Origin: an uncultured Candidatus Saccharibacteria bacterium
GTDB taxonomy: Bacteria; Patescibacteriota; Minisyncoccia; Phycocordibacterales; UBA9973
Assembly (NCBI GenBank): GCA_964527185.1
Contig: CAZGOI010000001.1
Coordinates: 87,166-151,165, forward strand
DNA length: 64,000 nt
Direction of reading: 5' to 3'
This document shows, one piece after another, positions 2,807 through 43,437 of this stretch. How positions within the stretch are numbered: the first letter of the stretch is position 1; each line of letters opens with the position of its first letter. Both the position numbers and the translations under genes were made by a program. The notes under the pieces are model-generated. The model made no database searches. It was not told where the DNA came from and saw only the letters and a list, made by a program, of their open reading frames with translations.

Positions 2807-2829
2807 TGTATTTTACTTTCTGTTTTTTT

Positions 2830-2893
2830 AATAATGAAAAATTGGCCGAACGTCTAACATTATAGCAATAAGAAATTTAAAATGATATTATAG
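2830..2893 (+). promoter_or_regulatory. copy A of a 64-bp near-identical intergenic element, putative promoter of the ECF sigma operon
   Basis: taataatgaaaaattggccgaacgtctaacattatagcaata..aaaatgatattata recurs at 4721..4784 with 2-3 mismatches. It is preceded by a T-run and ends 48 bp upstream of the sigma-factor ATG. Confidence 0.45.
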
Positions 2894-2941
2894 AACCACA
2901 ACAATTCTTGTAAGAATTTAAGCTATGAAACGTCTTAATAT

Positions 2942-3457
2942 ATGAGTGTAGAGATAGAAAAAGAATTTATAGAAGCCTGTGGAATTTATTCAGATGCCCT
3001 ATTCCGCTACGCCTTTTTCAAAACAAGGGACCGGGAGACTTCAAAGGACCTGGTCCAAGACACTTTCACAAAAACCTGGGACTATCTTAGGAAAGGTAAC
3101 AATATAGACAATCTAAAAGCTTTTTTCTACAAGACACTCTCGAATTTAATAATCGATTTTTATCGTAAAAATAAGCCTGAGCCACTCGAGTCAATCATCG
3201 AGGCTGGCATGGAACCAGGTTTTGATGGTGAAACTCAAATTACAGATAAAATAGATATAGGGCTGGCGCTCAAGTTGCTCGACCAAATTCCCAGAGAATA
3301 CAAAGATGTGCTAGTCCTTCGCTATGTTGAGGAATTATCAATTAAAGAAATTGCAAACATGCAGAACGAATCAGAGAATACTATAACGGTCAGAATCCAT
3401 CGGGGGGCAAAGAAGGTCAAGCAAATATTTAAAGATAAAACAAAAGGCTATGAATAA
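2942..3457 (+). CDS. ECF-type RNA polymerase sigma-70 family factor
   Basis: Region-2-like LVQDTFTKTWDYL..FFYKTLSNLIIDFYRK and region-4-like VLVLRYVEELSIKEIANMQNESENTITVRIHRGAKKV. Confidence 0.8.
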   Translation: MSVEIEKEFIEACGIYSDALFRYAFFKTRDRETSKDLVQDTFTKTWDYLRKGNNIDNLKAFFYKTLSNLIIDFYRKNKPEPLESIIEAGMEPGFDGETQITDKIDIGLALKLLDQIPREYKDVLVLRYVEELSIKEIANMQNESENTITVRIHRGAKKVKQIFKDKTKGYE

Positions 3458-4661
3458 AATTTTTAAAAAAATTACAGAGGAAATGAAAGGTGCATCTCTT
3501 AGACAAGACGAGAAGGATGTTCTTTTATCGAAAATATCATCATACATGAGAGAAAACCCTATAGAACAAGGGGTGGCTTCGCCATATATAGGCCCTGTAA
3601 TAAATACCGATCCTGTCCGTCATATAGAGTATAACAACGATTGGTCAAAGTTGTTTACATTATCAACATTAAAACAAAGAAAATTTATGCCGATTCTAAT
3701 AATACTTATGTTAGTGCTTGGGGGTGGCACATCGTTTGCTGCAAACTATGCCCTTCCGGGTGACGCTCTATATGGAGTTAAAACTCATGTCAATGAAAAT
3801 GTCAGATCGTTCCTAGCTTTTGGTGCCAATCAAAACGCAAAGGTCGAAGCTGATATTGCTCGTGAGAGACTCGAAGAAGCAGAGAAGCTTGCCATCAAGG
3901 GAACAATCAGTACGGATGTGAAGAATGAACTTGAAAATAATTTCAATCTTCATGCCGGTAATGTGAAAGCTCTTGTTGCAAAAATGGAGAGCAACGGGGA
4001 TCTCAATGGTGCTGCTCAAGTTAATTCTAATTTCGAAAACACGCTTGATGTCCACGACGCGATCTTGATCGCAATTGCAAAATCAGATCAAGAAGATAAA
4101 GATAAAATCGATGATCTCAAAGCCGACGTCGATGCACATCTCAAAACTACAGTTGAAGCTCGTGTAGAAAATGAACAGAAGGTAGTTGCTTCAGATAACG
4201 CAAATATTGAAGCAAAAGCCCAGGGTTCACTTAACGCTGCAAGCAATAAAATTGCTGAGGCTAAAAAGTATCTTGAAAACAATAGTTCTGATGTCAGTGC
4301 TGAAGCCAAAGCCGAAGCAACTGCTGAACTAAAATCAGCCGATGATTTGGTTGCCAGTGGTAAAGCCAAGCTTGAAGCAAAAGCATACGCTGACGCCTAT
4401 ATACTCTTTGACAAAGCTTTCAGGATGGCAGAGCATGCCAAGCTCATCTTAAACTCTGAGAATGACTTGAACATAAATACAGGCAACTTACTGAAAATAG
4501 ATTACCGCCAAGACATTAATGGTAATGATAATTCTGCTAGCGGAAATGGTGGTACAAAGGTCGAGACAAATATAAATTCACAAACTGGAGTACAAACCAA
4601 TTCTGGTACTAAGGTAGAAAACAAGACTAATGTCGGGGGCTCAATTAATTTAGGATTATAA
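3450..4661 (+). CDS. membrane-anchored coiled-coil protein, putative anti-sigma factor (DUF5667-like)
   Basis: Its start overlaps the sigma-factor stop by 8 nt. It has a short cytoplasmic N-terminus, one transmembrane segment (FMPILIILMLVLGGGTSFAA), and a long Ala/Lys/Glu-rich repetitive coiled-coil ectodomain. Confidence 0.45.
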   Translation: MNKIFKKITEEMKGASLRQDEKDVLLSKISSYMRENPIEQGVASPYIGPVINTDPVRHIEYNNDWSKLFTLSTLKQRKFMPILIILMLVLGGGTSFAANYALPGDALYGVKTHVNENVRSFLAFGANQNAKVEADIARERLEEAEKLAIKGTISTDVKNELENNFNLHAGNVKALVAKMESNGDLNGAAQVNSNFENTLDVHDAILIAIAKSDQEDKDKIDDLKADVDAHLKTTVEARVENEQKVVASDNANIEAKAQGSLNAASNKIAEAKKYLENNSSDVSAEAKAEATAELKSADDLVASGKAKLEAKAYADAYILFDKAFRMAEHAKLILNSENDLNINTGNLLKIDYRQDINGNDNSASGNGGTKVETNINSQTGVQTNSGTKVENKTNVGGSINLGL

Positions 4662-4690
4662 TAGAAATCCTAAAACTCTATCAATAAAAA

Positions 4691-4721
4691 GACTCGCCTA
4701 GGTGAGTCTTTTTATTTTTTT
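4691..4721 (+). terminator. rho-independent terminator after the sigma/anti-sigma operon
   Basis: gactcgcctaggtgagtc hairpin followed by ttttatttttttt. Confidence 0.55.
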
Positions 4722-4784
4722 AATAATGAAAAATTGGCCGAACGTCTAACATTATAGCAATAATAAATTCAAAATGATATTATA
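4721..4784 (+). promoter_or_regulatory. copy B of the 64-bp element, immediately upstream of the ankyrin gene
   Basis: Near-identical to 2830..2893. It ends 8 bp before the ATG at 4793. Confidence 0.45.
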
Positions 4785-4792
4785 AAAGCATA

Positions 4793-5341
4793 ATGACCGA
4801 GAAAAAATATTCACCAGATGGTAAAGGAGGAGGTGGTATTGCTCTGACAAAAGACATGCTTCAGGGTTTAGCTGATTTGGGCTATCCGAAAAGCATGAGA
4901 AATACTATTGATTATTGGAATGCTGAGGAAATAATAAAAAAACAATTATCATATAAAAAAATTGATATTGGGGTATCGGAAGAAGAAAAGACAGATGAAG
5001 TAAAAAAAGATATAGAAAAAGATTACAGGAGTATTGAGCACAGTGGTGCTGATAAATTTAAAGCGGTTTACAATTTGAAACCCGAGGATTTAGAAAAAGC
5101 TCTTGAGTTTGATGATAATGTAAATGAAAAAGATGACGGCGGCGATACGATGCTTCACATTGTTGTAAATATGGCTTTTGGAGATTTCAAAAATGCCAAA
5201 AGGATTATTGAGATGCTAAAGAAGAAAGGTGTAAATATTTTTCTTAAAAATATAGATGGATTGACAGCCATAGATATAGCCGAACGCAGATCAGAGAAAA
5301 CGCCTGAATATAAAGATATTGTTGATGAATTGAAAAATTAA
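4793..5341 (+). CDS. ankyrin-repeat protein
   Basis: DGGDTMLHIVVNMAFGDFKNAKRIIEMLKKKGVNIFLKNIDGLTAIDIAERR fits the ankyrin-repeat consensus (TxLH..A....G....LL..GA..N..D..G.TA.D.A). Confidence 0.55.
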   Translation: MTEKKYSPDGKGGGGIALTKDMLQGLADLGYPKSMRNTIDYWNAEEIIKKQLSYKKIDIGVSEEEKTDEVKKDIEKDYRSIEHSGADKFKAVYNLKPEDLEKALEFDDNVNEKDDGGDTMLHIVVNMAFGDFKNAKRIIEMLKKKGVNIFLKNIDGLTAIDIAERRSEKTPEYKDIVDELKN

Positions 5342-5393
5342 TTAAGTCACTTTAACTTACCTTTATGCGCTTCTATTGCAAATTCTGTCGCTT

Positions 5394-5969
5394 TTATAAA
5401 GCTCCTAGTTTCTTTAGCGCGTCTACCACAGGGCCAATAGGCAAACCTACTAAGGCAAAATAATCACCGTTAATTTTACTAACAAGCAATGCTCCTTTTT
5501 CTTGAATGGCATAAGCCCCGGCTCTATCTAGTGGTTCTCCCGTTGCAATATATTCATCTATTTCTTTTTCAGATAGCTTTTTAAAATAAACTTCTATGAC
5601 TTCTGCTTCAGATATAATTTCTCCATTTTTACAATTTATTAAACTATATCCAGTGATGACTTGGTGAATTTGTCCACTCAACATGTTTAGCATATCCTTG
5701 GCTTTTTCTTTTGTATGGGGTTTACCTAAAACTTTATCTTTGTACGATATAAATGTGTCGGAACCGATCACTACTACGTTCTCATCTTTATGTCTAGCGG
5801 CTACTGCCTCAGCTTTACCTAAGGATAAATATTTCGCAAGGTCAATAGGATGCATGTCTAGCGTCATATCTTCCTCATATGATGATGGTTCAGTATCAAA
5901 TTTAATTCCAATTTGCTCTAGCAATTGTTTTCTTCTTGGGGATGTGGATGCCAGAATAATCTTTTTCAT
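5394..5969 (-). CDS. maf: Maf-like nucleoside triphosphate pyrophosphatase
   Basis: MKKIILASTSPRRKQLLEQIGI..VIGSDT..GKP..GAYAIQ are Maf signatures. Confidence 0.85.
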   Translation of the reverse strand: MKKIILASTSPRRKQLLEQIGIKFDTEPSSYEEDMTLDMHPIDLAKYLSLGKAEAVAARHKDENVVVIGSDTFISYKDKVLGKPHTKEKAKDMLNMLSGQIHQVITGYSLINCKNGEIISEAEVIEVYFKKLSEKEIDEYIATGEPLDRAGAYAIQEKGALLVSKINGDYFALVGLPIGPVVDALKKLGAL

Positions 5970-6109
5970 AAATCTAGTATAGCAAAATTATGAAATAAAC
6001 TGATGTTAAATTATTTTCTTAAATTTAAAGGGGTGTTTTTAATTGCAAGGACCAAACTAATTCTCTCTTTCACTTGGTTTGGGTGGTATTAGGCGAGTCT
6101 TTTTATTTT

Positions 6110-6603
6110 TTATTGCGGATCAACACCTCGCCAGAGGTTGCTGGTATTTACAGAATGGTTACCAGATGCTTTTACATATAGAAATAGCTGCATTTTGTAT
6201 GCCACAAAATTTTTGAGAAGCGCAAGAAGGAAAAGGGCTTTAGATTGCGTCGTACCAAATCGAGTGATGACTTTGCTTAACTCTTCATCTGTAAATTTAT
6301 CAAAAAGTACTTTCATTTCTTTTTCTTCTTTTTCCATACGCTCGATGAAATTATCAAGAGTTGTAGCTTCCCTACTTTCTTTCAATTTTCTTTCAATTCA
6401 TCAAAAAGCTTTGGGTTGTCTTCGAGGGTCGCACGCATTGAAATCGTCCCCATCTCACTGAGATAGTGCAGGAGTTCCAGTGTTGTACGTTGTTTTTCTG
6501 TTGGCTTGTAATCTGATTTGCCGTGTGGAATCTTTTCGAACAAATGCTTTATAATCCGAATTTCATTTTCAAAAGACGCCCATATTTCTTCTCTTGTATA
6601 CAT
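6110..6603 (-). pseudogene. DinB/YfiT-like protein gene disrupted by an 11-bp tandem duplication
   Basis: Two adjacent ORFs (6382..6603 and 6110..6385) sit in different frames. The unit ttctttcaatt occurs twice in tandem at 6377..6398. Removing one copy fuses the frames into ..PKLFDELKESREATTLDNF.. (about 162 aa). Confidence 0.5.
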
Positions 6604-6637
6604 AATTTAATTTTGTTTATTAATAATTTTTTCTCTT

Positions 6638-6711
6638 GGGTGCCTACTGGGATTTGAACCCAGGCTGAGAGTTCCACAAACTCTAGTGCTAACCATTACA
6701 CTATAGGCACC
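6638..6711 (-). tRNA. tRNA-His (anticodon GTG) with G-1
   Basis: The reverse complement GGUGCCUAUAGUGUAAUGGUUAGCACUAGAGUUUGUGGAACUCU..GGUUCAAAUCC..AGGCACC folds as a cloverleaf with anticodon loop UUGUGGA. There is an extra 5' G opposite C73. CCA is not encoded. Confidence 0.8.
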
Positions 6712-6767
6712 ATGTGCGCCGCGAGGCGTGACAATGTTATACCAGAAAAACATTTATAAATCTAGTT

Positions 6768-7190
6768 CTAGCGGGCGACAAATAGGTGGATATATGAGAT
6801 AAGTCCGATCAGAAAAGATATAGCGGCCGAGAGCAGGCACCAGGTGCACCAGTGGCGCAAGACAAAGGCTTGCAGAGAAACCAAATAGATAGAAAAAAGT
6901 ATGGCGCACAAAGAGAGGCCAAATAAAAATATAGACAGCGGAGTCGACCAAAAACCAAACACATACGAGGCGCTATATACAAAACCGATGAAAAAATAAT
7001 AGAGCATGCCTAGTATTTCAACTCGAACCCCTAATATTTTTGAATAATCAGAGTGTATAACAGTATCACAGTCTGACTTCATCGGGCAGATCATTTTTTT
7101 CTTGCTCTTTTTCTTGGAAAAAATATAGAAAGACAAGATGAAACCAAATAGGCCAAGAAGACTAATTAGATTGATGAGTAGGTTATGCAT
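6768..7190 (-). CDS. vitamin K epoxide reductase (VKOR) family disulfide-bond-forming membrane protein
   Basis: A polytopic protein with the CxxC redox motif (HWCTWCLLSA) in a transmembrane helix, plus a loop Cys pair (CPMKSDC). It lies directly downstream of the large extracytoplasmic protein gene. Confidence 0.7.
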   Translation of the reverse strand: MHNLLINLISLLGLFGFILSFYIFSKKKSKKKMICPMKSDCDTVIHSDYSKILGVRVEILGMLYYFFIGFVYSASYVFGFWSTPLSIFLFGLSLCAILFSIYLVSLQAFVLRHWCTWCLLSAAISFLIGLISYIHLFVAR

Positions 7191-9317
7191 TTATTTACAA
7201 ACAGTCCCTGCAAGCGGAACTGTTATTTCCTTGGTTACTCCAGTGCTATCGGCGCAGAACGAAGTAGACAGCTTGCTCGAAAGCGGCGCCGACATCGCCC
7301 AGTTGATCGGCGTCGAGTAGCAAGACATAGCCCCGCCGGTAATATTTAGAATGTTGTTGATTGCGCTTGAGATATTGCCGACAGCATTAGATGCGCCCTT
7401 TGGGTGGCCGAGTGGCGAAAATAGCGAGCCGGGGTTTGGGTTGGTGCAACTGCCGTTTGGGTTGGTCCGGGCGCCAAATTTGCCGATCGCGTTGTGCAAG
7501 CCATCGGCCGATTGCTTGAAAGATGAAATTAGATTTTTTATCTGCATGTCGGTAACTGTTTTCATATAATCAGTCATCGCTATAGCAACCGGTGGCAGGT
7601 CGATATTATTCTTTACATTGAAATCATAGTAGGTGTTCTGCCAAGATAGGCTGACTGTATTACCGGCGATACCCTTGTCTTCAATACCTAAGATTTTAGA
7701 TAGCGGCACGCTTGCGCTAAAGCCGTATTGGGTGACATTGCCACTCGTCTCTCCTACCCAAATATCAAATTCGTCGAGTGTTGCAGAGCCAAGTACACTA
7801 TCGAGCGAAGATTGTTCATCGCTCGTAAGCCCAGAGACAAAAATATTAATAAAGTTTTTAAAAAGCATTTTAGTAGAGGCCGAGTCTGAGCTAAGCACGT
7901 AGTGGTATGAATCCTCGCCGTGAATATTCTCCGGCGCTTTTTCAACGACCGAAGAATTGCCGACAAACGCTCCGAGCGCGCTACTGGTCTGGCTCGTCGT
8001 ATAAGAAGGAAGGGTAATCGACAAGAGTTTATCGAGGTCGATTTTCGTTGCCCGCGAACTTACTATCTGGGGCAAGAGTGCAACGATCGAACCGAGCTCC
8101 TCTTTTTTAACCGTCACGATTGCGGGTGGTGGAGAATTTTCACCAAGTATACCAGAGAGATCCGGAGTGTGAACAAAAGTTTGGTTATAACCATAATCAA
8201 TTTCTGTATTTATATCTTGTTTGAAGAATGAACTTTTTATCGTTGCATCGTATTTAAAAAGTGGCAATTGGCCATCGCGGGCGACCTCGGCTTGCCCATC
8301 GAGCGATATAAAATCTTGGGATTCTGATGAATTTTTTTCGCCGCTGACTAGACCATTGGTGATATCGGCAAAAGTTGGTATTGAAATCTTTGCCCGAGTC
8401 AAAGATTTATATGAAGACATAGACATGAGTGTCTGTGAAGCGTTGTTTAGCAAAATTCTTGGATCTTTTTTGACAAAAGGTAAATTAAATTCGGGAAGTT
8501 TTATATAACCACGGGCAAAGGCAAAGACTCCACCGACCAGAGAACCTATTATCAAAATAACGACAAACCACTTCATTATTTTTTTAGATCTAATATTCGA
8601 CAGCTCTCCACTGCCACCTGAAGATGAGGAGAGTATTTTAGGATACGAGTGCAAAACAGCGTTCTGTGGAATTATTTGCGATGGGCTGATCTTGGGTAGA
8701 TTAGACGAGATGATGCTTGAAGCTGGGGAAGGTGGCTCGGTTAAATTTTTTGGTTTTAGCGTTGGGATAAGTTCCTGATTTTCTTGCTTTGGTATTAGAG
8801 GTTCACTTCTTATTATTGTTTTTACTGGCTCTGGCTTTTGTAAAATATTGGGGGTAATAATTGTTACCTTGGCGGGTTGGGGTTTGTATTGTGGTGGAGT
8901 TATCTCAACTATTTTTGGTCTCATGATGCCATAGTTTACCGATGTAGATTCCAGATTGTCATCTTCCTTTCTCGGAGTTTTTGTTATGTTATCTGGTATA
9001 TAGTAGGAGATGCTTGGGTCTTTGGTGTTGGCGGTGCTGAAGCTTGTCGCAAAAACAGGTTCTGTCGGCTTTTCTGTTTTTTCAATGGCAAGCGAGGTTG
9101 AGATATCTGGCAATTGGGCCCCAGTTAATTCTTTTTCTTGTGGAGTTATTTCTTGGGTCGTTATTTTTGGCGGCTCGGGCGGGGAAAGTTTTTTGAAAGC
9201 CTCGTCGATATCGGCTTCCCGCCAACCGGCCGACCTCAAGCGCGAGGCGATTGTATCTTTGCTCGTATTTTTTCGAAATTGATTTTGTATGTAGACTATC
9301 AAATCCTCGGTGATCAT
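7191..9317 (-). CDS. large membrane-anchored extracytoplasmic protein (hypothetical)
   Basis: A cytoplasmic N-terminal domain, a Pro/Thr-rich linker, one transmembrane segment (WFVVILIIGSLVGGVFAF), then a ~450-aa ectodomain. The C-terminal region contains several cysteines (SCTNPNPG..MSCYSTP..FCADSTG..GTVCK). Confidence 0.5.
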   Translation of the reverse strand: MITEDLIVYIQNQFRKNTSKDTIASRLRSAGWREADIDEAFKKLSPPEPPKITTQEITPQEKELTGAQLPDISTSLAIEKTEKPTEPVFATSFSTANTKDPSISYYIPDNITKTPRKEDDNLESTSVNYGIMRPKIVEITPPQYKPQPAKVTIITPNILQKPEPVKTIIRSEPLIPKQENQELIPTLKPKNLTEPPSPASSIISSNLPKISPSQIIPQNAVLHSYPKILSSSSGGSGELSNIRSKKIMKWFVVILIIGSLVGGVFAFARGYIKLPEFNLPFVKKDPRILLNNASQTLMSMSSYKSLTRAKISIPTFADITNGLVSGEKNSSESQDFISLDGQAEVARDGQLPLFKYDATIKSSFFKQDINTEIDYGYNQTFVHTPDLSGILGENSPPPAIVTVKKEELGSIVALLPQIVSSRATKIDLDKLLSITLPSYTTSQTSSALGAFVGNSSVVEKAPENIHGEDSYHYVLSSDSASTKMLFKNFINIFVSGLTSDEQSSLDSVLGSATLDEFDIWVGETSGNVTQYGFSASVPLSKILGIEDKGIAGNTVSLSWQNTYYDFNVKNNIDLPPVAIAMTDYMKTVTDMQIKNLISSFKQSADGLHNAIGKFGARTNPNGSCTNPNPGSLFSPLGHPKGASNAVGNISSAINNILNITGGAMSCYSTPINWAMSAPLSSKLSTSFCADSTGVTKEITVPLAGTVCK

Positions 9318-19148: not shown

Positions 19149-19299
19149 GCGTGCTATACTATTTTAATGAAAATGAGCGAAAATGCCCGGGCCATACTCC
19201 TCCTCATTATCTTGGTCGCTATCGGCGGGATAGTTTTGTATGGGCAAAACACCCCATGGGGCACGCATAAATACAAAGATTTCTGGCCAGAAAAATTCT

Positions 19300-21480
19300 A
19301 TGAATCTCGATGACAAGATTGCAAAACATTTTCGCCTGCAACAACCACAAGAGAGAGCCTTGGCCCGACTTGGGCTTCTTGATATCGGCGACCTGCTCTA
19401 CCACTTCCCCCACAGGTATACCGATATCTCGCAAATTAAATACATAAACACTCTCGAGCATGGCGAGACGGCAACGATCCTCGGAAAAATTTCTAAATTA
19501 AAAACAAAAAAAGGTTGGAAGAGTAAAATCCCGATGGGCCAAGCGATACTCGCGGATGCAACTGGCACGATAAATATCATCTGGTTCCACCAGCCATACT
19601 TGGCAAAGATGTTAAAAGATGGCGAGGTTGTGCGAATCACCGGCAAAGTCTCACAGAGTAAAACCTATGGCCTAACTTTAACCAACCCAGAATTCCAAAA
19701 GGGCGACACCTTGCCCGTTGACCTGCACGATTCGCTTTTTAAAAAGGATAGTGAGACTATTTATGGTGGTGGCTACCCCGTTTACGGCGAGACCAAGGGC
19801 ATAACTTCAAAGTGGTTCTACCACGCTATTTCAAAAATTTTGAAAGACGATTGCGTAAAAAATATTGTCGAATACATACCAAGAGAAATTCTTGATAAAT
19901 ACAAATTGCCGAGCCTGCACACGGCCCTCGTCTGGGTTCATATGCCAAAGAAAAAAGAGCACGCCGAGATTGCCCGCAAGCGATTTGCATTTGAAGAAAT
20001 TTTTTTCATCCAACTTTCGCGCCAGCGCGAGCGCAAAGAATATGAAGAAATGTTTTCATACAAGTTAAACATTTCGGCCAAAGATATTAGCGATTTTATT
20101 TCTCGCTTCCCTTTTGCTCCGACAAGGGCGCAGAGGAATGTGACCGACACAATACTCGAGGATTTAAAAAAGGGCAAACCGATGTCGCGCTTGGTCGAGG
20201 GTGATGTCGGCTCGGGCAAAACTTTTGTGGCAGCGACTGTTTCATATGCGGTCATCAAAAATCGCCCGGTGGGACAGGGCTTTGGCAACCTGCAAGTCGC
20301 CTACATGGCCCCAACCGAAGTCTTGGCGACCCAGCTTTATGAAAACTTTATCGAATATTTCGACCACACTGGCATTTCGATCGGCCTGGTCACTGGCAGC
20401 GGCTGCCGAAAGTTCCCTTCAAAGAGCGCCCATTGGGAAGGTGGCAAACAAGTTCGCACCTGGACACCGATCTCGCGCGCCCAGCTTTTGAAATGGGTAA
20501 AAAATGGCGAGATCCCGATAGTTGTCGGCACGCACGCCCTTATTCAAAAGTCTGTCGACTTCAAAGATTTAGGCCTTGTCGTTATCGACGAACAGCACCG
20601 CTTCGGGACCAACCAACGCATGAAACTTGCAAAGAAAGAAGGCCACGCCCCGCACTACCTTTCGATGACAGCCACCCCGATCCCAAGAACACTAGCGCTG
20701 ACTATATATGGCGACCTTGATCTTTCGATTCTTGATGAAATGCCGGTCGGTCGAAAAGAAATAATAACAAAAATTGTCGCGCCCGATAAAAGAGGCGAAG
20801 CCTATGAAGCCGTGCGGAGCGAATTAGAAAAAGGTAGGCAGGCGTATATAATTTGCCCAAGAATTTTTGACGCCGAAGTTAGCACTGCTTTTGAAACTAA
20901 ATCAGTAACCACTGAAGCCAAAAGACTTCAAAAAGAAGTTTTTCCAAAATATAGGATTGGTGTCATGCATTCAAAGATGTCTAAGCAGGCGAAAGAAGAA
21001 GTCATGCAGGATTTTAAAAATCATGATATAGATATTTTGGTTTCAACCTCGGTCGTCGAAGTCGGAGTCAACGTCGAAAATGCGACTTCGATCGTGATCG
21101 AGGGGGCCGAGCGGTTCGGCTTGGCCCAGCTGCACCAGCTTCGTGGCCGAGTTTTGCGCAGCAGCCACCAGGCATATTGCTATTTATTTGCCGAAGCCAA
21201 AACTGAAAAGACCATGGACAGGTTGAAGGCTCTGACAAAAACGAGCAATGGTTTTGAATTGGCCGAGCTCGACCTTTCGCTCCGCGGGGCTGGGTTACTC
21301 TCTGGTGACAAGCAGTGGGGTGTGACCGACCTTGGAATGGAAGCGATCAAAAATATAAAAATGGTCGAAGCGGCGCGAACCGAGGCGACCAGATTGGTAG
21401 AGCAAGACATCAATCTCAAAAAATATCCATTGCTTGCCAAAGAACTAGAAAAAAAGCATTTAGATTTACATTTTGAGTAG
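19300..21480 (+). CDS. recG: ATP-dependent DNA helicase RecG
   Basis: A wedge/OB N-terminal domain, the DEAH helicase motifs EGDVGSGKTFVA and VVIDEQHRFG, and the C-terminal helicase lobe. The start was set at MNLDDKIAKHF, a typical RecG N-terminus; the track ORF starts at 19240. Confidence 0.85.
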   Translation: MNLDDKIAKHFRLQQPQERALARLGLLDIGDLLYHFPHRYTDISQIKYINTLEHGETATILGKISKLKTKKGWKSKIPMGQAILADATGTINIIWFHQPYLAKMLKDGEVVRITGKVSQSKTYGLTLTNPEFQKGDTLPVDLHDSLFKKDSETIYGGGYPVYGETKGITSKWFYHAISKILKDDCVKNIVEYIPREILDKYKLPSLHTALVWVHMPKKKEHAEIARKRFAFEEIFFIQLSRQRERKEYEEMFSYKLNISAKDISDFISRFPFAPTRAQRNVTDTILEDLKKGKPMSRLVEGDVGSGKTFVAATVSYAVIKNRPVGQGFGNLQVAYMAPTEVLATQLYENFIEYFDHTGISIGLVTGSGCRKFPSKSAHWEGGKQVRTWTPISRAQLLKWVKNGEIPIVVGTHALIQKSVDFKDLGLVVIDEQHRFGTNQRMKLAKKEGHAPHYLSMTATPIPRTLALTIYGDLDLSILDEMPVGRKEIITKIVAPDKRGEAYEAVRSELEKGRQAYIICPRIFDAEVSTAFETKSVTTEAKRLQKEVFPKYRIGVMHSKMSKQAKEEVMQDFKNHDIDILVSTSVVEVGVNVENATSIVIEGAERFGLAQLHQLRGRVLRSSHQAYCYLFAEAKTEKTMDRLKALTKTSNGFELAELDLSLRGAGLLSGDKQWGVTDLGMEAIKNIKMVEAARTEATRLVEQDINLKKYPLLAKELEKKHLDLHFE

Positions 21481-21482
21481 GA

Positions 21483-23735
21483 TTATTTGAGTAATTCGTA
21501 TTTAAACAATTTTGGTGTTATATACTTTGCATAGTATATCTTTAATTTTTTCTTTAGATTTTCCAGTTCGCCATTTAATGTTGGATAATCATATTCTATT
21601 TTATTATTCTCGTCTTTTTTGTAAGTGTTTAATTCCATCTCAATTTGATATGGACCATAAGCTAATTTTTTGTCATATTTCTTTGTCTTTTTTGCCTCCT
21701 TTAAAACGCCCTCCCAAATTTTAATCAATTCTTTCTCTTCCGAATTTAATTTATATTTTTCAAGCTGTATACTTGCTAGTGTTTTTGCATCAAAACAAAG
21801 CTCGTTTTTATAAAATCGTTTGTCACTTCCTGTAAAAGAAAGACATTTATTATATCTGGAAAGACAAGTAAAGATAAAACATGATTTCAGGAAATCTTTA
21901 TCTTTTATATATTTGTCACCGCCATCTCCAGTAGTAAAATACACATCTTTTTCATACCAATTTTCTTGTGGGTAAAGTTTTGCAGCGAAAAGTGGCAGTT
22001 TCTCTAGAAAATTATCGGATCGTAAGTAAAAACCACGAGCGTTATAAAGTATTTGTCTTGTTAGGGAAAAATTTGATGGACCAATTAAGAATCCCTTTGC
22101 TGTCATGTAGCCCAGAATGTTTTTGTTGTATATAGATACTCCGTCACATTTTCTATGATTAGCTTCAGTACCGTCACTTTCGCACCAAACACTTGTTTTA
22201 ACATCATCCTTAAATTCTCTTTTTTCGAATAGTGGTAATAAAGTATTTTTAACTTTTTTTACTTCAACATTAATTTTAATATCCACGATTTTGTCGTCCT
22301 TTATGTCTGATGTTTTATTGTTATCAATATCAAAAGCTGGAAAAACAAAATTATCTTGTTCTTTATCTTTATTCTGCCACCAAATTACAGAAATAGAGCT
22401 TGGTGATGCGTGAAAATGTTGACGGTTGGCCAAAAAACCATTTTTAAAATACTTATTCACTAGACCTATACTTTTAAAATATTTAACAGGTGAAAATAGT
22501 ATGTAACTATCCGTTGGTTGTCTAAGGTAATATTTAAGACCAGACCAAATAAATAAATTTGTTATTTCGCGTGCTGAGGATATATTGCTATTATTTAGAC
22601 TTTCAAGTTCCTTTCGCATTTCTTGTGAGACATATTTATTTTTTCTATCAGTCTTTTTCTGCCCTTGCTCATCAGTAAACTCCACAGCAGAGGTATCACT
22701 ATATGGAGGATTTTCGAACAAAATTACCGTGCATTTTGGATTATCAATATATTGCTTAATAATTTCGTTTTCAACAAAATCTTTGCTTAAGGCATCTGCA
22801 TTTGTCACGAAACCTGCTGAAAATTCCACATTGTCTTCCGTTGGTGGAATGATGTGGCGGACACGTCCATTAAAACGCTCTAATAGGACTTTATACTCAT
22901 AATATTCCATTGTGCTCACAATGGTGTGAGATAGTTCTTCTTCTGAAAGTTCAGCCTGTAAGTTTCCAGTTCCAGCGCAACGGTCTAAAATTATATAATC
23001 ATTGCCTTTAGGTACGAGTTTTATTGCTTCGCGGACAAGTTCCACCGCTTTTCTAGCATATGCAGGTGGAGTAAAGAAAGCACCGAGCTCTTTTTTGATT
23101 AGATTATCATTCAATTTGTCCATCAAATACTTAAATTTGATGTTTGTTTTTTCTTTAAACGGTAAAATGTAAGCCTTAAATTTTATGGGTTTGCGAATTT
23201 CTCCGTCGTCTTTATCGTCAAGAAAATCACTTTTCTTTGCTGTTGGATTTTCTCGATAAAATTTTTCTGCCCAACCGACAATACAATCTTCATCTATTTT
23301 TATTTTTGTAAAATTATTCTCTTTGAGTAGTTTTAAAACTTTGTCCGCATCAGACATATTAGAATAATTGTATTCTTTCGGTTGTTTTTTTATCGCGAAC
23401 CCCTCATTATTCTTACTAGCTCCGCCATAATAGATCTGATGAATCTCATCGAAATAATCTCCACTGTCAAAGACATAAACCTTGCCTTGATTTAATGATA
23501 CGAGAAGAATGTTTTTTGGTACTGGGTGACCAGTTATTCTTAATCTTGAAAGATATTTAATAGCTTGAAAAAGTACTTGTTGTGTATTGTTGATACTTAA
23601 TTTAAATTCAAAAATGTTTCCATTATATACACCATCAGTGTTCGCAATAAGAACATTATTCTCATCAAGTTTAATCCCAAAATTTTTGAAAAAATGGAGT
23701 TGACCTTCTCGTTCGGTTGTAAAGTTATTATGCAT
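21483..23735 (-). CDS. Type IIG (MmeI-like) single-polypeptide restriction-modification enzyme: N-terminal PD-(D/E)xK nuclease, gamma-class N6-adenine methyltransferase, C-terminal target-recognition domain
   Basis: N-terminal D-x8-ExK (NTDGVYNGNIFEFKLS). Methyltransferase motifs in gamma order: X LGAFFTPPAYARKAVELV, I ILDRCAGTGNL, IV ILFENPPYSD. This is followed by a ~330-aa C-terminal region. The gene is visibly more AT-rich than its neighbours. Confidence 0.6.
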   Translation of the reverse strand: MHNNFTTEREGQLHFFKNFGIKLDENNVLIANTDGVYNGNIFEFKLSINNTQQVLFQAIKYLSRLRITGHPVPKNILLVSLNQGKVYVFDSGDYFDEIHQIYYGGASKNNEGFAIKKQPKEYNYSNMSDADKVLKLLKENNFTKIKIDEDCIVGWAEKFYRENPTAKKSDFLDDKDDGEIRKPIKFKAYILPFKEKTNIKFKYLMDKLNDNLIKKELGAFFTPPAYARKAVELVREAIKLVPKGNDYIILDRCAGTGNLQAELSEEELSHTIVSTMEYYEYKVLLERFNGRVRHIIPPTEDNVEFSAGFVTNADALSKDFVENEIIKQYIDNPKCTVILFENPPYSDTSAVEFTDEQGQKKTDRKNKYVSQEMRKELESLNNSNISSAREITNLFIWSGLKYYLRQPTDSYILFSPVKYFKSIGLVNKYFKNGFLANRQHFHASPSSISVIWWQNKDKEQDNFVFPAFDIDNNKTSDIKDDKIVDIKINVEVKKVKNTLLPLFEKREFKDDVKTSVWCESDGTEANHRKCDGVSIYNKNILGYMTAKGFLIGPSNFSLTRQILYNARGFYLRSDNFLEKLPLFAAKLYPQENWYEKDVYFTTGDGGDKYIKDKDFLKSCFIFTCLSRYNKCLSFTGSDKRFYKNELCFDAKTLASIQLEKYKLNSEEKELIKIWEGVLKEAKKTKKYDKKLAYGPYQIEMELNTYKKDENNKIEYDYPTLNGELENLKKKLKIYYAKYITPKLFKYELLK

Positions 23736-23779
23736 ATTTAAATACTGTCATATTATTATATTTTTTCCAAATTTAGAAC

Positions 23780-23853
23780 TGGTGGACCCACGGGGAATCG
23801 CACCCCGGACTCGTCCATGCCATGGACGCGTGTTACTACTATACTATGGGCCC
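23780..23853 (-). tRNA. atypical tRNA-Ala-like gene (anticodon GGC, G3:U70, encoded CCA) with a degenerate D-arm
   Basis: The reverse complement GGGCCCAUAGUAUAGUAGUAACACGCGUCCAUGGCAUGGACGAGUCCGGGGUGCGAUUCCCCGUGGGUCCACCA has a perfect 7-bp acceptor stem with G3:U70, an anticodon stem-loop (AUGGCAU), and a canonical T-arm plus CCA. The D-region lacks G18G19 and a proper D-stem. It could be a functional minimal tRNA, a pseudogene, or a remnant of an integration site. Confidence 0.5.
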
Positions 23854-24039
23854 AGAAGGCATATTATTTGTCTCGTATGAATCTCGATTACTGCCATGGG
23901 TACATGTCATCACGAATAATTTCTCGCCGTCGCTCGAAAATTTCGCGATCCCGGCTCGTGGTTTTGCGCACTCGCAAAACATCACTCCGCCCCGGGCAAG
24001 TGAACAAAAAAGATAAACTTTCATCTTTTTTGTTCCTTG

Positions 24040-24112
24040 TCCGCTCGGCAGGAATCGAACCTGCGACCATCTCCTTAAAAGGGAGCTGCTCTACCGACTG
24101 AGCTACGAGCGG
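24040..24112 (-). tRNA. tRNA-Lys (anticodon TTT)
   Basis: The reverse complement CCGCUCGUAGCUCAGUCGGUAGAGCAGCUCCCUUUUAAGGAGAUGGUCGCAGGUUCGAUUCCUGCCGAGCGGA has anticodon loop CUUUUAA and a D-arm typical of tRNA-Lys. Confidence 0.8.
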
Positions 24113-24340
24113 ATTACACAAAAGTACCATATTCTAAGGATAAAATCAATTTATCCACACGATGTTTTGAAAAAAAATTTCAGACGATATATAATGTACG
24201 TAAGTTTCGTTTTGTTAACTTCTATCTGCACCCAAAGATATTGGGAAATAAAAATTGAGGAAGTATTTTAACAATCATAGTTGTTTCAGTCGCATCTTTT
24301 TTATTATAGGGTGCGCGTGTTCTTTATCTAAAGGCTAGAA

Positions 24341-24397
24341 AGGCCTAGGAGTCAGTTCTCGAATCTCGAGGTTTGACTCCTAGGCCTTTTATTTTTG
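24341..24397. terminator. strong 14-bp-stem hairpin with T-run (terminator-like), with a nested palindrome in the loop
   Basis: aggcctaggagtca..(loop gttctcgaatctcgaggtt)..tgactcctaggcct followed by tttatttttg. The loop itself contains the palindrome ctcga-atc-tcgag. Confidence 0.5.
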
Positions 24398-40784: not shown

Positions 40785-41882
40785 CTATTTATTCATTGGC
40801 ATAACAAGATACATAAACGATTGGTCACCAACGGGTTTTATAATCATTGCTTTATTACCACCAGAGAACTCTAAACTAATACTGTCTTCAGAAATTGATT
40901 GGAAGCAATCTAATATATACTTGTAATTAAAATTAGCTATAACCACTTCGCCAGATAGAGCGCCAGAAACAAATGTGCTATTTTCTCCTATATCAGTATT
41001 TTTCGATTCTATTTCAAAAAATTTTTCTTGTGGTCTTACCGAGAGTGAGATTTGGTTGAATTTATCAGAAAAAATATTTGATATTTTTAGGGAGGATAGT
41101 AGGTCTTGTTTTAAAACAATAGCTTTTGTTGTTGGGTTTTTGGGAATTATCTGTTTATAGTCTGGGAAGGATCCATCTATAATTCTTGAGGTTAGATATA
41201 TACTATCTGTGGTTATAGATATTTGGCTTTTTTGAATAGTGAGTTTTATATCTTCATCTAGTGTTTCAAGTATTTTTATAATTTCTATACTGTTTTTAAA
41301 TGGTAGTAAAATATTTGAAAATGATAGTTTTTGTTTTATTTTTATTTTTTTCTCAGCCAACCTAAAAGAGTCTGTGGCCACAAAAACAAGCATGTCTTCG
41401 TCTGGATATATATTTATACTACCGATTTCTGGTTTTATTTCAGAAGTAGACGAGCTGTAGTAGACAGATTTTAACCCTTCAAGTAGTTTTTTACTTGGGA
41501 TTGATACTGTTTCCCCTTTAATTATTGGAATTGTTGGGAAATCTTCATATGGAACACTTTTAAGAAGTATTGTGTTGTGTTTGGTTTTTACCGATAAATT
41601 ATTGTTTATAGATTCAAAATAAACATTTCCATCATTTGAAATTTGGGAAAATAGCGACGATAGCACGTCTCCTCGAATAGCCATGACGCCACTTTTTTCT
41701 ATTTTAGCAGGCACAGTAACTTCTATACCGATACTTAGATTGGTTGATCGTAGTTTTAGGTTTTTATCATTAACCACCCAAAGTATAGATCCTAAAACTG
41801 GGAGAGTTAGGTTTCTACCAGTTAACCTCTCAACTAATATCAGTGCATTTTTTATTTTACTAACTTGGCATTCTAATTTCAT
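40785..41882 (-). CDS. dnaN: DNA polymerase III beta sliding clamp
   Basis: MKLECQVSKIKNALILVERLTGRNLTLPVLGSILW, with a three-domain length of 365 aa. Confidence 0.85.
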   Translation of the reverse strand: MKLECQVSKIKNALILVERLTGRNLTLPVLGSILWVVNDKNLKLRSTNLSIGIEVTVPAKIEKSGVMAIRGDVLSSLFSQISNDGNVYFESINNNLSVKTKHNTILLKSVPYEDFPTIPIIKGETVSIPSKKLLEGLKSVYYSSSTSEIKPEIGSINIYPDEDMLVFVATDSFRLAEKKIKIKQKLSFSNILLPFKNSIEIIKILETLDEDIKLTIQKSQISITTDSIYLTSRIIDGSFPDYKQIIPKNPTTKAIVLKQDLLSSLKISNIFSDKFNQISLSVRPQEKFFEIESKNTDIGENSTFVSGALSGEVVIANFNYKYILDCFQSISEDSISLEFSGGNKAMIIKPVGDQSFMYLVMPMNK

Positions 41883-42087
41883 ACTATTCTAATTAATTAC
41901 TTATATAAATCTATTATTAATATTATATCTGTTGATATGTTGATTGTCTTAATTAATCATATATATAAAGCTATTTTCAGATAATCCCATCTAACAACCC
42001 ACCCCTAATTGTTAATTATTTTATATAACTTAAAAATCTTGTAATTTTTCCACACTAATTAAAAAATTAAACACTCTTTATTCACAA
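41883..42087. promoter_or_regulatory. candidate oriC in the AT-rich dnaA-dnaN intergenic spacer
   Basis: A spacer more than 80% A+T. It contains DnaA-box-like 9-mers TTTTCCACA and TTATTCACA, each one mismatch from TTATCCACA, and long A/T tracts suited to unwinding. Confidence 0.4.
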
Positions 42088-43437
42088 CTATTTAAACATC
42101 ACCCTAATCTTTTCTATCTCTTGTAATAACGACGGATCTGTTTTTAAATCATCTTTGATTTTTAAATGAGAGTGAATTACTGTTGTATGGTCTCGTCCAC
42201 CAAGTTTTTGCCCTATAAGTGGGTAAGAAATACTAAAATCCTCTCTCAATATATACATGGCCACCTGTCGCGCACGAACAATTTCCTTCCTTCTTGTTTT
42301 TTCATAAATAACATCCTCTGAAATTCCATATTGGTCAGCAATTATTTTTACAATATCTTTTATGGCTACTGTTTTCTTTGGTTTAATATTGTTTTTAATC
42401 AAAGTTTTAACCTCGTTTAATGTTAAAACCCTATTCTTTAACTGAGATTGATATATAACAATATTTAAACTACCCTCGAGCTCCCTTATATTTCCTTCTA
42501 ATGATTCTGCTAAATAAGCGATAACCTCTGGTTCTATTATGCAATTTGTAGATTCAAATTTAGCTTTTATAATAGCAATTCTTGATTCATAATCTGGCTC
42601 AACAACCTGCACAATCATACCGGAAGAAAACCTCGATTGCAATCGTTCTTCTAACCCCTGAATAAAGTTTGGGTGTTTATCAGAAGAAAAAACTATTTGT
42701 TTATTACTCTCATATAGGGTATTGAAAAGATGAAACAATTCTTCTTGTGTTTTATCTTTTCCAGAAATAAATTGAATGTCGTCCATGATAATTACATCAT
42801 ATTTTCTATATTTTTCTTTAAATGAATTTGGGTTTTTATTTTGAATCGAGTTTATATAGTCGACTGCAAACTTTTCAAGACTAACATAGTAAACTTTTTT
42901 ACTAGAGTGTTTGGTTTTTATTGTGTTACCAATCGCTTGTATTATGTGTGTTTTACCAAGACCAGTGCCACCATATATAAAAAATGGATTATAATTTTGC
43001 CCGGGATTATTAACAACCGCTTGAGCAACAGCATATGCAAGCTCATTAAATGGTCCAACAACAAAAGAGTTAAAAGTGTATCTAGGGTTTAAATTATCAT
43101 CTTTATTTATATATAAATCAGAAAGCGGCAATTCTTTATTTACAGAAACAACTTGTTTTACCACTTCAACACGACCCTTATCTATATTTTCATGCTTTGA
43201 AATTATATATTCTATTCCACGAACACTATCTTCGTGGGAAATAATAGTTTTTAATATTAATTTATGGAATTTATTATACAGCCAATCCTTTACGAATTCA
43301 TTTGGCACTCCGACATAAAGTGTGCCAGAATCCTCCTTAACTATATAAGTATTTCTAAACCAAGTAGAGAAATTAGCCTTAGAAATACTGAGTTCTATCT
43401 CAGCAAGACAGTTATCCCACAACTCCTTAGTATTCAT
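42088..43437 (-). CDS. dnaA: chromosomal replication initiator DnaA
   Basis: AAA+ Walker A GGTGLGKTHIIQAIGN, Walker B VIIMDDIQF, and the C-terminal DNA-binding helix-turn-helix (VAMYILRE). Confidence 0.9.
   Translation of the reverse strand: MNTKELWDNCLAEIELSISKANFSTWFRNTYIVKEDSGTLYVGVPNEFVKDWLYNKFHKLILKTIISHEDSVRGIEYIISKHENIDKGRVEVVKQVVSVNKELPLSDLYINKDDNLNPRYTFNSFVVGPFNELAYAVAQAVVNNPGQNYNPFFIYGGTGLGKTHIIQAIGNTIKTKHSSKKVYYVSLEKFAVDYINSIQNKNPNSFKEKYRKYDVIIMDDIQFISGKDKTQEELFHLFNTLYESNKQIVFSSDKHPNFIQGLEERLQSRFSSGMIVQVVEPDYESRIAIIKAKFESTNCIIEPEVIAYLAESLEGNIRELEGSLNIVIYQSQLKNRVLTLNEVKTLIKNNIKPKKTVAIKDIVKIIADQYGISEDVIYEKTRRKEIVRARQVAMYILREDFSISYPLIGQKLGGRDHTTVIHSHLKIKDDLKTDPSLLQEIEKIRVMFK

What the first reader, a model, noticed from the sequence alone, without database searches (positions are those of the whole stretch)
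21483..23735. An AT-rich MmeI-like Type IIG restriction-modification gene wedged between recG and a tRNA pair, with the hallmarks of a mobile defence islet
A single 750-aa polypeptide carries an N-terminal PD-(D/E)xK-like D-x8-ExK nuclease motif. It then has gamma-class N6-adenine methyltransferase motifs in X-I-IV order (GAFFTP / LDRCAGTGN / NPPY) and a long C-terminal target-recognition domain. The gene is noticeably more AT-rich than recG, suggesting acquisition. It converges on recG with a 2-nt gap. Directly beyond it lie two tRNA genes, one structurally aberrant, which fits tRNA-targeted integration. Restriction-modification systems of this class are rare in reduced CPR genomes.
Basis: partly seen in the sequence, partly recalled or inferred. 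Interest (0 to 1): 0.6.

Follow-up and report, generated by a model that had tools for sequence, protein, structure and literature searches.

The report
Unannotated single-chain restriction-modification enzyme gene
The 750-residue gene very probably encodes a one-protein restriction-modification enzyme (DNA cutter, adenine methylase and DNA reader in one chain) from a large, widespread family that no protein database names, but the idea that it arrived through a tRNA-targeted island is not supported.

Summary
The ORF (21483-23735, minus strand, 750 aa), its motifs, the 2-nt gap to recG and the two tRNAs are all real. No sequence library recognises the protein: Pfam, NCBIfam, PADLOC and PDB sequences give nothing significant. 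The N-terminal domain is a PD-(D/E)xK nuclease whose best matches are the nuclease domains of BpuSI (Type IIG) and DrdV (Type IIL). The centre is a gamma-class N6-adenine DNA methyltransferase.

Two hypervariable segments co-vary and are swapped as cassettes on otherwise 85-93% identical backbones, as expected of specificity determinants. The family is large (more than 3,600 clusters at 90% identity), is labelled 'hypothetical' wherever a source names it, and occurs in Patescibacteria, Clostridium, Limosilactobacillus plasmids and viral contigs. It is always solitary.

Copies at least 85% identical sit in five different neighbourhoods, and none of 80 recG relatives has the gene there, so it is mobile. 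Other claims fail:
- It is not an MmeI-family member.
- Its codon usage is not deviant, and dnaA and dnaN are equally AT-rich.
- There is no integrase and no att repeat.
- Restriction-modification is not considered rare in CPR bacteria.

Verdict: a new sequence family of a known kind; moderate interest.

The parts
21483..23735 (-). 750-aa ORF: putative single-chain restriction-modification enzyme (Type IIG-like) of an unannotated family
23436..23735 (-). N-terminal PD-(D/E)xK nuclease domain (aa 1-100)
23601..23636 (-). Catalytic motif D34-x8-E43-x-K45
   Evidence: Read directly from the sequence; invariant in alignments A1 and A3.
23091..23435 (-). Connector domain between nuclease and methyltransferase (aa 101-215)
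   Evidence: Secondary structure in the AF2 models. Conserved, 65% mean column identity. Function is inferred by analogy with the spacer domains of Type IIG/IIL enzymes.
22371..23090 (-). Gamma-class N6-adenine DNA methyltransferase domain (aa 216-455): motif X GAFFTP at 23067-23084, motif I DRCAGTG at 22962-22991, motif IV NPPY at 22701-22712
22566..22700 (-). Hypervariable segment 1 (aa 346-390), directly after NPPY
   Evidence: Mean column identity 0.26-0.29, against 0.64-0.87 for the backbone segments. Co-varies with segment 2, r 0.78.
22041..22370 (-). Hypervariable segment 2 (aa 456-565), putative core of the target-recognition domain
   Evidence: Mean column identity 0.32-0.39. Replaced as a cassette on 85-93% identical backbones. 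Not alignable at DNA level in L002, L088 and L091, although the flanks are.
21486..22040 (-). Conserved C-terminal region (aa 566-750), mostly helical
   Evidence: pLDDT 83-97; 64-80% mean column identity. Role (TRD scaffold or dimerisation) is inferred.
19240..21480 (+). recG, converging on the ORF with a 2-nt gap; last gene of a conserved histidine kinase / response regulator / recG block
   Evidence: RecG_wedge, DEAD, Helicase_C. Upstream synteny is conserved in most of the 80 relatives; downstream synteny is not.
23780..23853 (-). tRNA-Ala(GGC), atypical D- and T-loops; its 3' end lies 44 nt upstream of the ORF start, on the same strand
   Evidence: ARAGORN. Rfam 51.1 bits with two non-standard D-stem pairs. 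Not found next to other copies of the gene.
23905..23990 (-). Conserved structured non-coding element between the two tRNAs. In relative L006 it lies 12 nt after the recG stop, so it marks the far edge of what is extra in this window
   Evidence: blastn 84% identity over 86 nt to L006 5888-5973. Alignment A2. Consensus fold in which 8 of 17 predicted pairs show compensatory changes.
24039..24112 (-). tRNA-Lys(UUU), first gene of the conserved tRNA-Lys / holA-like / PEMT-ICMT-family methyltransferase / polA block
   Evidence: Synteny with L092, where the tRNA is inverted.

Best explanation
The gene encodes a self-contained, single-chain restriction-modification enzyme of the Type IIG/IIL kind.

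Inferred mechanism:
- The C-terminal half, together with a loop just after the NPPY motif (the two co-varying hypervariable segments, aa 346-390 and 456-565), reads a short DNA sequence.
- The central gamma-class methyltransferase (GAFFTP, DRCAGTG, NPPY) uses S-adenosyl-methionine to methylate an adenine (N6) in that sequence on the cell's own DNA.
- The N-terminal PD-(D/E)xK nuclease (E8, D34, E43, K45) cuts unmethylated incoming DNA at some distance from the site. Because each chain has one active site, it probably needs two enzyme molecules for a double-strand break, as in BpuSI, MmeI and DrdV.

Shown here: the domain folds, the invariant catalytic residues, the absence of any conserved partner gene, the cassette-like exchange of the two variable segments, and the patchy and mobile distribution of the gene.

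Inferred only: enzymatic activity, adenine as the target, cleavage geometry and a defence role.

Genomic setting: the gene sits as a single-gene insertion at a synteny breakpoint. On one side is the histidine kinase / response regulator / recG block. On the other is the tRNA-Lys / holA-like / polA block. The gene was most likely acquired from another patescibacterium of similar base composition.
For: - The full model matches BpuSI (Foldseek E 3e-7), M.BseCI, MmeI, LlaBIII, DrdV, PglX and Type I HsdM.
- E8, D34, E43, K45 and Q57 are invariant over 51 sequences down to 29% identity. DRCAGTG and ENPPY are invariant or nearly so, and are retained in a distant 14-sequence set.
- The variable segments co-vary (r 0.78; partial r 0.77 given the backbone). 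They differ at 13-38% identity between proteins whose backbones are 85-93% identical.
- No neighbour recurs across about 10 neighbourhoods.
- One copy sits in a defence island with DpnII, GmrSD, Mrr, an N6_N4 methyltransferase and a reverse transcriptase.
- Copies at least 85% identical lie in five different neighbourhoods.
- None of 80 recG relatives has the gene directly after recG; one has a 38%-identical relative about 6 kb downstream.
- The family occurs on 4 Limosilactobacillus plasmids and 13 viral contigs.
Against: - There is no significant sequence match to any curated restriction-modification or defence model in Pfam, NCBIfam or PADLOC, or to PDB sequences. The assignment therefore rests on predicted structure and short motifs.
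- TM-scores for the whole chain are low (0.2-0.26), because only individual domains superpose.
- The recognition domain has no specific structural match.
- No activity data exist for any member. I found no paper naming the family, although my literature searches were narrow.
- In some viral contigs the homologue lies next to other DNA methyltransferases. That setting would also fit a methylation-centred, anti-restriction role.
Confidence: 0.72

Rival explanations
1. The protein is a solitary (orphan) DNA adenine methyltransferase. Its N-terminal nuclease-like domain no longer cuts DNA and serves only in DNA binding or regulation. The gene would then be epigenetic or anti-restriction equipment rather than a restriction enzyme.
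For: About 540-aa relatives match only profile positions 210-753, that is, they lack the nuclease domain. Viral homologues sit in clusters of other DNA methyltransferases. The only weak sequence hits are to methyltransferase models.
Against: The nuclease triad and the helix-1 glutamate are invariant across 51 sequences down to 29% identity. That implies selection on catalysis. The domain model is confident and matches active restriction nuclease domains best. Some short forms may be fragments from contig ends.
Confidence: 0.12
2. The protein has the biochemistry of a restriction-modification enzyme, but its main role in this reduced episymbiont is to degrade foreign or host DNA to obtain nucleotides, not to defend against phages.
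For: The idea is raised for Patescibacteria in PMC12455944. The family is frequent in patescibacterial contigs.
Against: The same family occurs at 39-55% identity in Clostridium, on Limosilactobacillus plasmids and on viral contigs. A CPR-specific role therefore cannot explain the family. Nothing in the sequence speaks to it.
Confidence: 0.08
3. The protein is one component of a multi-gene defence system with a gamma-class methyltransferase (BREX PglX-like, DISARM, or a helicase-dependent Type ISP system).
Against: PADLOC found none of its models in the window protein; among six relatives tested, one viral homologue gave a weak Type II MTase hit (E 1.2e-5) and the others gave nothing. No partner gene recurs in any neighbourhood examined. 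The protein has no helicase or ATPase domain. In this window the flanking genes are recG, tRNAs, a holA-like gene and polA.
Confidence: 0.03
4. The protein is an RNA or protein methyltransferase (NPPY also occurs in PrmC/HemK glutamine methyltransferases and in rRNA m6A enzymes) fused to an unrelated nuclease-fold domain.
Against: The DNA adenine methyltransferases of restriction-modification systems score higher and align over more residues (264-385 against 150-180). The motif X GAFFTP, the restriction-type nuclease domain, the hypervariable recognition cassettes and the mobile, defence-island contexts all point to DNA.
Confidence: 0.03

Closest known systems
BpuSI (PDB 3S1S) and the Eco57I-type Type IIG enzymes
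   Different: There is no sequence-level relationship: no Eco57I or N6_Mtase Pfam hit, and no PDB sequence hit even with a family profile at E up to 10. The protein is shorter (750 against 870-1000 aa). The nuclease motif spacing is D-x8-ExK, against PD-x15-ExK reported for BpuSI (abstract of PMC3185434).
MmeI (PDB 5HR4) and DrdV (PDB 7LO5), Type IIL enzymes
   Different: No MmeI Pfam model hits this protein, although such a model does detect a 47-aa MmeI_C fragment in the neighbouring gene of locus L001. The protein is about 170-270 aa shorter. One-strand methylation and cutting 18-20 bp from the site are untested.
M.BseCI, TaqI and Type I HsdM gamma-class DNA adenine methyltransferases
   Different: Those enzymes have no fused nuclease. 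Motif I here is the unusual DRCAGTG, with R where most have P (my recollection of typical motifs, not tested here).
Single-gene mobile restriction-modification units (Furuta et al. 2010, PMC2853133)
   Same: The restriction-modification gene is found as an isolated insertion among housekeeping genes, with different neighbours in related genomes.
   Different: No target duplication, flanking repeats or mobility gene were detected here. DNA similarity between copies ends exactly at the ORF ends. I cite only the abstract of that paper.

Membership tests
Type IIG restriction-modification enzymes (functional class) | Endonuclease and methyltransferase domains in one polypeptide | tested here: met
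   Predicted PD-(D/E)xK domain in aa 1-100 and a gamma-class methyltransferase in aa 216-455, both in one 750-aa ORF. This is in silico only.
Type IIG restriction-modification enzymes (functional class) | Demonstrated site-specific cleavage and methylation, with SAM dependence or stimulation | not testable with these tools
   Needs biochemistry or a methylome.
MmeI family (Type IIL) | Sequence homology to MmeI, that is, a match to the Pfam MmeI domain models (for example PF20467 MmeI_C) | tested here: not met
   The only Pfam hit at E up to 1 is an irrelevant one (WIV_dom, E 0.037). A family profile against PDB sequences finds no MmeI at E up to 10. Ten distant family members have no Pfam hits.
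MmeI family (Type IIL) | Order: N-terminal nuclease, helical spacer, gamma methyltransferase, C-terminal TRD | tested here: met
   Domain order from the models and motifs.
MmeI family (Type IIL) | Methylation of one strand only and cutting about 18-20 bp from the site | not testable with these tools
   Needs experiment.
Eco57I / BpuSI family | Match to the Pfam Eco57I (PF07669) or N6_Mtase (PF02384) models | tested here: not met
   No hit. BpuSI is nevertheless the best structural neighbour.
Gamma-class N6-adenine DNA methyltransferases | Motif order X, I, IV with (N/D)PP(Y/F), and a Rossmann-type methyltransferase fold followed by the TRD | tested here: met
PD-(D/E)xK nuclease superfamily | Alpha-beta-beta-beta-alpha-beta core carrying D...(D/E)xK on the second and third strands, with conserved acidic residues | tested here: met
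tRNA-targeted integrative genomic island | Integrase (tyrosine or serine recombinase) gene in the island | tested here: not met
   The insertion holds one ORF of at least 60 aa that is plausibly coding. Its neighbours are recG, two tRNAs, a holA-like gene, a PEMT/ICMT-family methyltransferase and polA.
tRNA-targeted integrative genomic island | Direct repeat of the tRNA 3' end (attL/attR) bounding the island | tested here: not met
   No flanking direct repeat longer than chance 11-16-mers, and none involves the tRNA ends.
tRNA-targeted integrative genomic island | The same element is found next to the same tRNA in other genomes | tested here: not met
   No tRNA lies next to the gene in L001, L002, L004, L088 or L091. 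The tRNA-Ala sequence is absent from the loci around recG in relatives and from viral contigs.
Horizontally acquired gene (compositional criterion) | GC content or codon usage deviating from the genome background | tested here: not met
   GC z = -1.84, but dnaN, dnaA and rnpA are equally low. Distance in synonymous codon usage ranks 50th of 54 genes, below recG. Only 64 kb of background was available.
Horizontally acquired gene (comparative criterion) | Patchy distribution, with different neighbourhoods for closely related copies | tested here: met
   Copies of 85-90% identity lie in five neighbourhoods. The gene is absent after recG in 80 relatives. The family occurs on plasmids and viral contigs.
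BREX / DISARM / Type ISP multi-component systems | Conserved partner genes (PglZ, BrxC, DrmA/B) or a fused helicase | tested here: not met
   No PADLOC hit, no recurrent neighbour and no ATPase domain in the model.

The most novel reading that the evidence does not exclude
This gene belongs to a large family that the curated libraries I searched (Pfam, NCBIfam, PADLOC, PHROGs) do not recognise, so annotation built on those models would miss it. The family consists of compact (about 750 aa) single-chain restriction-modification enzymes. Specificity would be set by two co-varying cassettes that are exchanged between otherwise near-identical backbones. The family has spread across Patescibacteria, Firmicutes plasmids and phages. 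If its members are active, the family would be a new, naturally modular source of DNA specificities, and a defence component currently missed in CPR and gut metagenomes.
Probability: 0.4. Interest if true: 0.55.

Novelty: new variant of a known kind. Interest (0 to 1): 0.42.

Why it matters
- Annotation built on the curated libraries tested here would miss this family. PADLOC, Pfam and NCBIfam do not recognise the window protein, so restriction-modification content may be under-counted in Patescibacteria, gut Firmicutes and phage genomes.
- The family offers many natural swaps of a putative specificity cassette on a constant scaffold. That is useful for learning how such enzymes read DNA and for engineering new cutters and methylases.
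- Homologues on small Limosilactobacillus plasmids make the prediction directly testable in a cultivable host.
- For this locus, the result is a caution. A local GC drop and nearby tRNAs looked like an integration island. In fact the codon usage is ordinary and there is no integration machinery. The evidence for mobility comes only from comparison with other genomes.

Tried and rejected
- Sequence libraries gave no usable hit. I searched Pfam, NCBIfam, PADLOC and PHROGs with the protein, and also PDB sequences with the single protein and with a 25-sequence profile at E up to 10.
- Pfam scans of 10 distant family members found nothing. A second database search with a distant-member profile returned only one source label, again 'hypothetical protein', and no Pfam domain.
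- A search for att-like repeats around the gene found only chance-sized matches.
- I looked for an empty site. 80 loci around recG in species-representative genomes have recG at most 77% identical, and synteny downstream of recG is not conserved. The variable recG-to-tRNA-Ile gap in relatives holds ordinary genes (sigma factor, Fur, ZIP, YibE/F, ribonucleotide reductase), not defence genes. I therefore dropped the idea of a 'defence hotspot'.
- The metagenome scan with the holA-like protein gave only two distant loci, neither with recG or the gene.
- A suspected second copy in L002 is unrelated.
- DNA comparison of copies, meant to define a mobile unit, showed that similarity stops at the ORF ends.
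- Literature searches for the RefSeq accession of the L. reuteri homologue, and for Type IIG together with Patescibacteria or reuteri methylomes, found nothing specific. One query was rejected for syntax.
- A viral-contig scan for the atypical tRNA-Ala found no match.
- I did not try to infer the recognition site from motif avoidance, because 64 kb is too little sequence.
Full report
**1. What is there**

The window holds a 2,253-nt ORF on the minus strand (21483-23735, ATG start, 750 aa). recG (19240-21480, plus strand) ends 2 nt before its stop codon, so the two genes converge head-on.

Upstream of the ORF, on the same strand, lie three features:
- tRNA-Ala(GGC) at 23780-23853; its 3' end is 44 nt from the ATG
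- a 185-nt spacer
- tRNA-Lys(UUU) at 24039-24112

The tRNA-Ala scores 51 bits in Rfam against 72 for tRNA-Lys. It has a mismatched D-stem pair, a D-loop without the usual GG, and a T-loop UGCGAUU. It keeps G3:U70 and an encoded CCA.

**2. Sequence searches do not recognise the protein**

- Pfam, NCBIfam and PADLOC gave nothing significant. Neither did PDB sequences, searched with the single protein and with a 25-sequence profile at E up to 10.
- The only weak signals are to methyltransferase models: phrog_3820 'DNA methyltransferase' (E 5e-4, residues 213-273) and, for a viral homologue only, PADLOC MTase_II (E 1.2e-5).
- The protein nevertheless has more than 3,644 homologous 90%-identity clusters and 779 50%-identity representatives at E up to 1e-3.
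- Every source that names a member calls it 'hypothetical protein', and none has a precomputed Pfam domain.
- Ten distant members scanned directly also have no Pfam hit.

**3. Predicted structure supports the functional reading**

An AlphaFold2 model of the whole protein (pLDDT 79) was searched against the PDB.
- Foldseek ranks the Type IIG enzyme BpuSI first (E 3.2e-7). It is followed by M.BseCI, MmeI, Type I HsdM subunits, TaqI and CamA.

- then a list dominated by PD-(D/E)xK nucleases (Hjc, Cas4, lambda-type exonucleases, McrC, FokI)

In an alignment of 51 family members down to 29% identity, E8, D34, E43, K45 and Q57 are invariant. That is hard to reconcile with a dead nuclease domain. The DRCAGTG and ENPPY motifs are invariant or nearly so.

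**4. Putative specificity determinants**

Conservation along the protein is bimodal. The backbone has 64-87% mean column identity. Two segments, aa 346-390 (immediately after NPPY) and aa 456-565, have only 26-39%.

Pairwise identities in the two segments correlate with each other (r 0.78). The correlation remains at 0.77 after regressing out backbone identity. Several pairs with 85-93% identical backbones have only 13-38% identity in both segments. For example, P0078 and P0089 are 93% identical in the backbone, 24% in segment 1 and 35% in segment 2. At DNA level the second segment is the only part that fails to align between some copies.

This is the pattern expected if both segments contact the recognition sequence and are exchanged together by recombination, as with target-recognition domains of other restriction-modification enzymes. 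That last comparison is inference.

**5. Solitary and mobile**

No neighbour recurs. The copies examined lie in these settings:

| Locus | Identity to window protein | Neighbourhood |
|---|---|---|
| window / L087 | 100% | between recG and tRNA-Ala |
| L095 | 90% | next to an HTH protein and a Cas4-like PD-(D/E)xK protein |
| L094 | 87% | between a NYN-domain gene and small ORFs, an Mrr-like gene and alaS |
| L096 | 86% | a different set of genes again |
| L001 | 85% | between RNase Y and a 47-aa MmeI_C fragment, a PemK toxin and ClpP |
| L088 | 74% | after a penicillin-binding protein |
| L091 | 74% | after EF-G |
| L002 | 69% | defence island: HD, reverse transcriptase, N6_N4 methyltransferase, GmrSD, DpnII, Mrr |

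More distant copies (39-55% identity) occur in four further settings:
- a Clostridium MAG
- four Limosilactobacillus plasmids, including the 9-kb mobilisable pAN417D
- 13 IMG/VR viral contigs, in some of which the gene follows two DNA methyltransferases and an HNH endonuclease
- a long run of small co-oriented ORFs typical of a phage or plasmid

Among 80 loci around recG from species-representative genomes (recG 60-77% identical), none has the gene directly after recG. One has a 38%-identical relative about 6 kb downstream.

**6. The 'islet' and its borders**

- *recG side.* The histidine kinase / response regulator / recG block is conserved in most relatives, but nothing downstream of recG matches the window.
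- *Far side.* The tRNA-Lys / holA-like / PEMT-ICMT-family methyltransferase / polA block is conserved in a distant metagenomic relative (L092). There the tRNA-Lys is inverted and no recG follows.
- *Position of the gene.* The gene therefore sits at a synteny breakpoint.
- *A landmark.* An ~86-nt conserved, apparently structured element lies at 23905-23990 in the window. In relative L006 it lies 12 nt after the recG stop and before a tRNA.
- *Extra DNA.* Relative to L006, the extra DNA in the window is about 21481-23904, that is, the gene plus tRNA-Ala(GGC).
- *Did the tRNA travel with the gene?* This cannot be decided. Other copies of the gene have no adjacent tRNA.
- *Integration machinery.* There is no integrase, and there are no repeats that could be att sites.
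- *Limit of DNA similarity.* Similarity between copies stops within 1-2 nt of the ORF ends in the closest copies, and within about 30 nt in all.
- *The 2-nt gap.* It is not unusual. In relatives a tRNA lies 5-13 nt after recG on the opposite strand.

**7. Composition**

The gene has GC 0.316 against 0.466 for recG. The 57 ORFs of the window average 0.393 (sd 0.042), so z = -1.84. However, dnaN, dnaA and rnpA (40785-44026) have GC 0.28-0.31 and GC3 0.23-0.26, the same as this gene.

In a distance measure of synonymous codon usage the gene ranks 50th of 54 genes, and 18th of the 20 long genes. It is therefore closer to the window background than recG is. The visible GC step owes as much to a GC-rich recG block as to an AT-rich insert.

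The closest homologues, in other patescibacterial-type contigs, have the same GC (0.31). The simplest reading is transfer among organisms of similar composition. The case for acquisition therefore rests on comparative evidence alone.

**8. Claim of rarity**

The best 60 or so homologues are 66-90% identical. The four that carry a source name are from Patescibacteria, Paceibacterota or Nomurabacteria, and the neighbourhoods I examined look patescibacterial. A recent study summarises CPR bacteria as mostly lacking CRISPR-Cas and relying on restriction-modification systems, some of them acquired on genomic islands (PMC12455944). 'Rare in CPR' is not supported.

**9. Most likely mechanism**

The protein is most likely a self-contained Type IIG/IIL-like enzyme.
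- The recognition module (aa 346-390 plus about 400-750) binds a short sequence.
- The methyltransferase marks an adenine there on host DNA.
- The N-terminal nuclease cuts unmarked DNA at a distance. It probably needs two molecules for a double-strand break.

The folds, invariant residues, solitary context and cassette exchange are shown here. Activity, target base, cleavage geometry and a defence role are inferred. Rival explanations are an orphan methyltransferase with a non-cutting nuclease-fold domain, a nucleotide-scavenging role, a component of a larger system, and an RNA or protein methyltransferase. All are less likely, for the reasons given in their entries.

**10. Comparison with known families, and novelty**

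The protein works like BpuSI/Eco57I-type and MmeI/DrdV-type enzymes, but it fails every sequence-based membership test for those families. I therefore classify it as a new sequence family of a known kind.

The main caveat is that REBASE could not be queried. A member may already be listed or characterised there.

Interest is moderate. New Type IIG families are not surprising to specialists. However, the size of the family, the fact that none of the libraries searched here names it, and its modular specificity cassettes make it worth a methylome and cleavage test. Homologues on Limosilactobacillus plasmids make that test easy.

Noticed in passing
window 23905-23990 (minus strand); also L006 5888-5973, L044 7775-7884, L033 8478-8554, L042 13735-13785, L084 14095-14145: An ~86-nt conserved non-coding element lies just downstream of a tRNA or tmRNA gene and in the same orientation. 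RNAalifold predicts a hairpin in which 8 of 17 pairs show compensatory changes. It has no Rfam match at E up to 1 and occurs once in the window. It may be an undescribed small RNA or 3' processing/terminator element of Paceibacteria.
   Followed up: partly
window 23780-23853 (minus strand): tRNA-Ala(GGC) departs from near-universal features. Its D-loop is AGUAGUA without G18G19, its T-loop is UGCGAUU (G instead of U55), and one D-stem pair is mismatched. It keeps G3:U70 and an encoded CCA. An exact-match scan found nothing in viral contigs, and the tRNA is not found near recG in relatives.
   Followed up: partly
window 40785-44026: The most AT-rich block of the window (GC 0.28-0.31) holds dnaN, dnaA and rnpA, with yidC next to it. 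It is therefore the replication-origin region and not foreign DNA. Cumulative GC skew peaks at about 41-42 kb.
   Followed up: partly
L001 10328-10471: Directly downstream of an 85%-identical homologue lies a 47-aa ORF that hits Pfam MmeI_C. It looks like a remnant of a genuine MmeI-family gene, followed by a PemK toxin. This suggests turnover of different restriction-modification genes at one spot.
   Followed up: no
L005-L084, just downstream of recG; also upstream of the histidine kinase gene: Many relatives carry tRNA-Ile(UAU) on the opposite strand 5-150 nt after recG, where the window has the gene, tRNA-Ala and tRNA-Lys. Many also carry a divergent pair that ARAGORN calls tRNA-Ser(GCU) and tRNA-Ser(ACU); the latter is an unusual anticodon.
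   Followed up: no
L097-L099 (IMG/VR contigs), about 2400-8300 in each locus: In viral contigs the homologue (50-53% identity) follows two tandem phrog_116 DNA methyltransferases and an HNH endonuclease gene (scanned in L097; L098 and L099 show the same ORF layout). Together they form a methyltransferase-rich module on a 43-114 kb element.
   Followed up: partly
window 24339-24389; L092 about 7645-7715: A 24-nt-arm inverted repeat (88% complementary, AAAGGCCTAGGAGTCA...) lies just downstream of the holA-like gene and is conserved in the distant relative L092. It is likely a transcription terminator. Relative to the window, tRNA-Lys is inverted in L092.
   Followed up: no
representatives P0147, P0151, P0161, P0170: About 540-aa family members match only profile positions 210-753 (methyltransferase plus recognition region, no nuclease domain). 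They may be natural methyltransferase-only forms or truncated gene calls.
   Followed up: no
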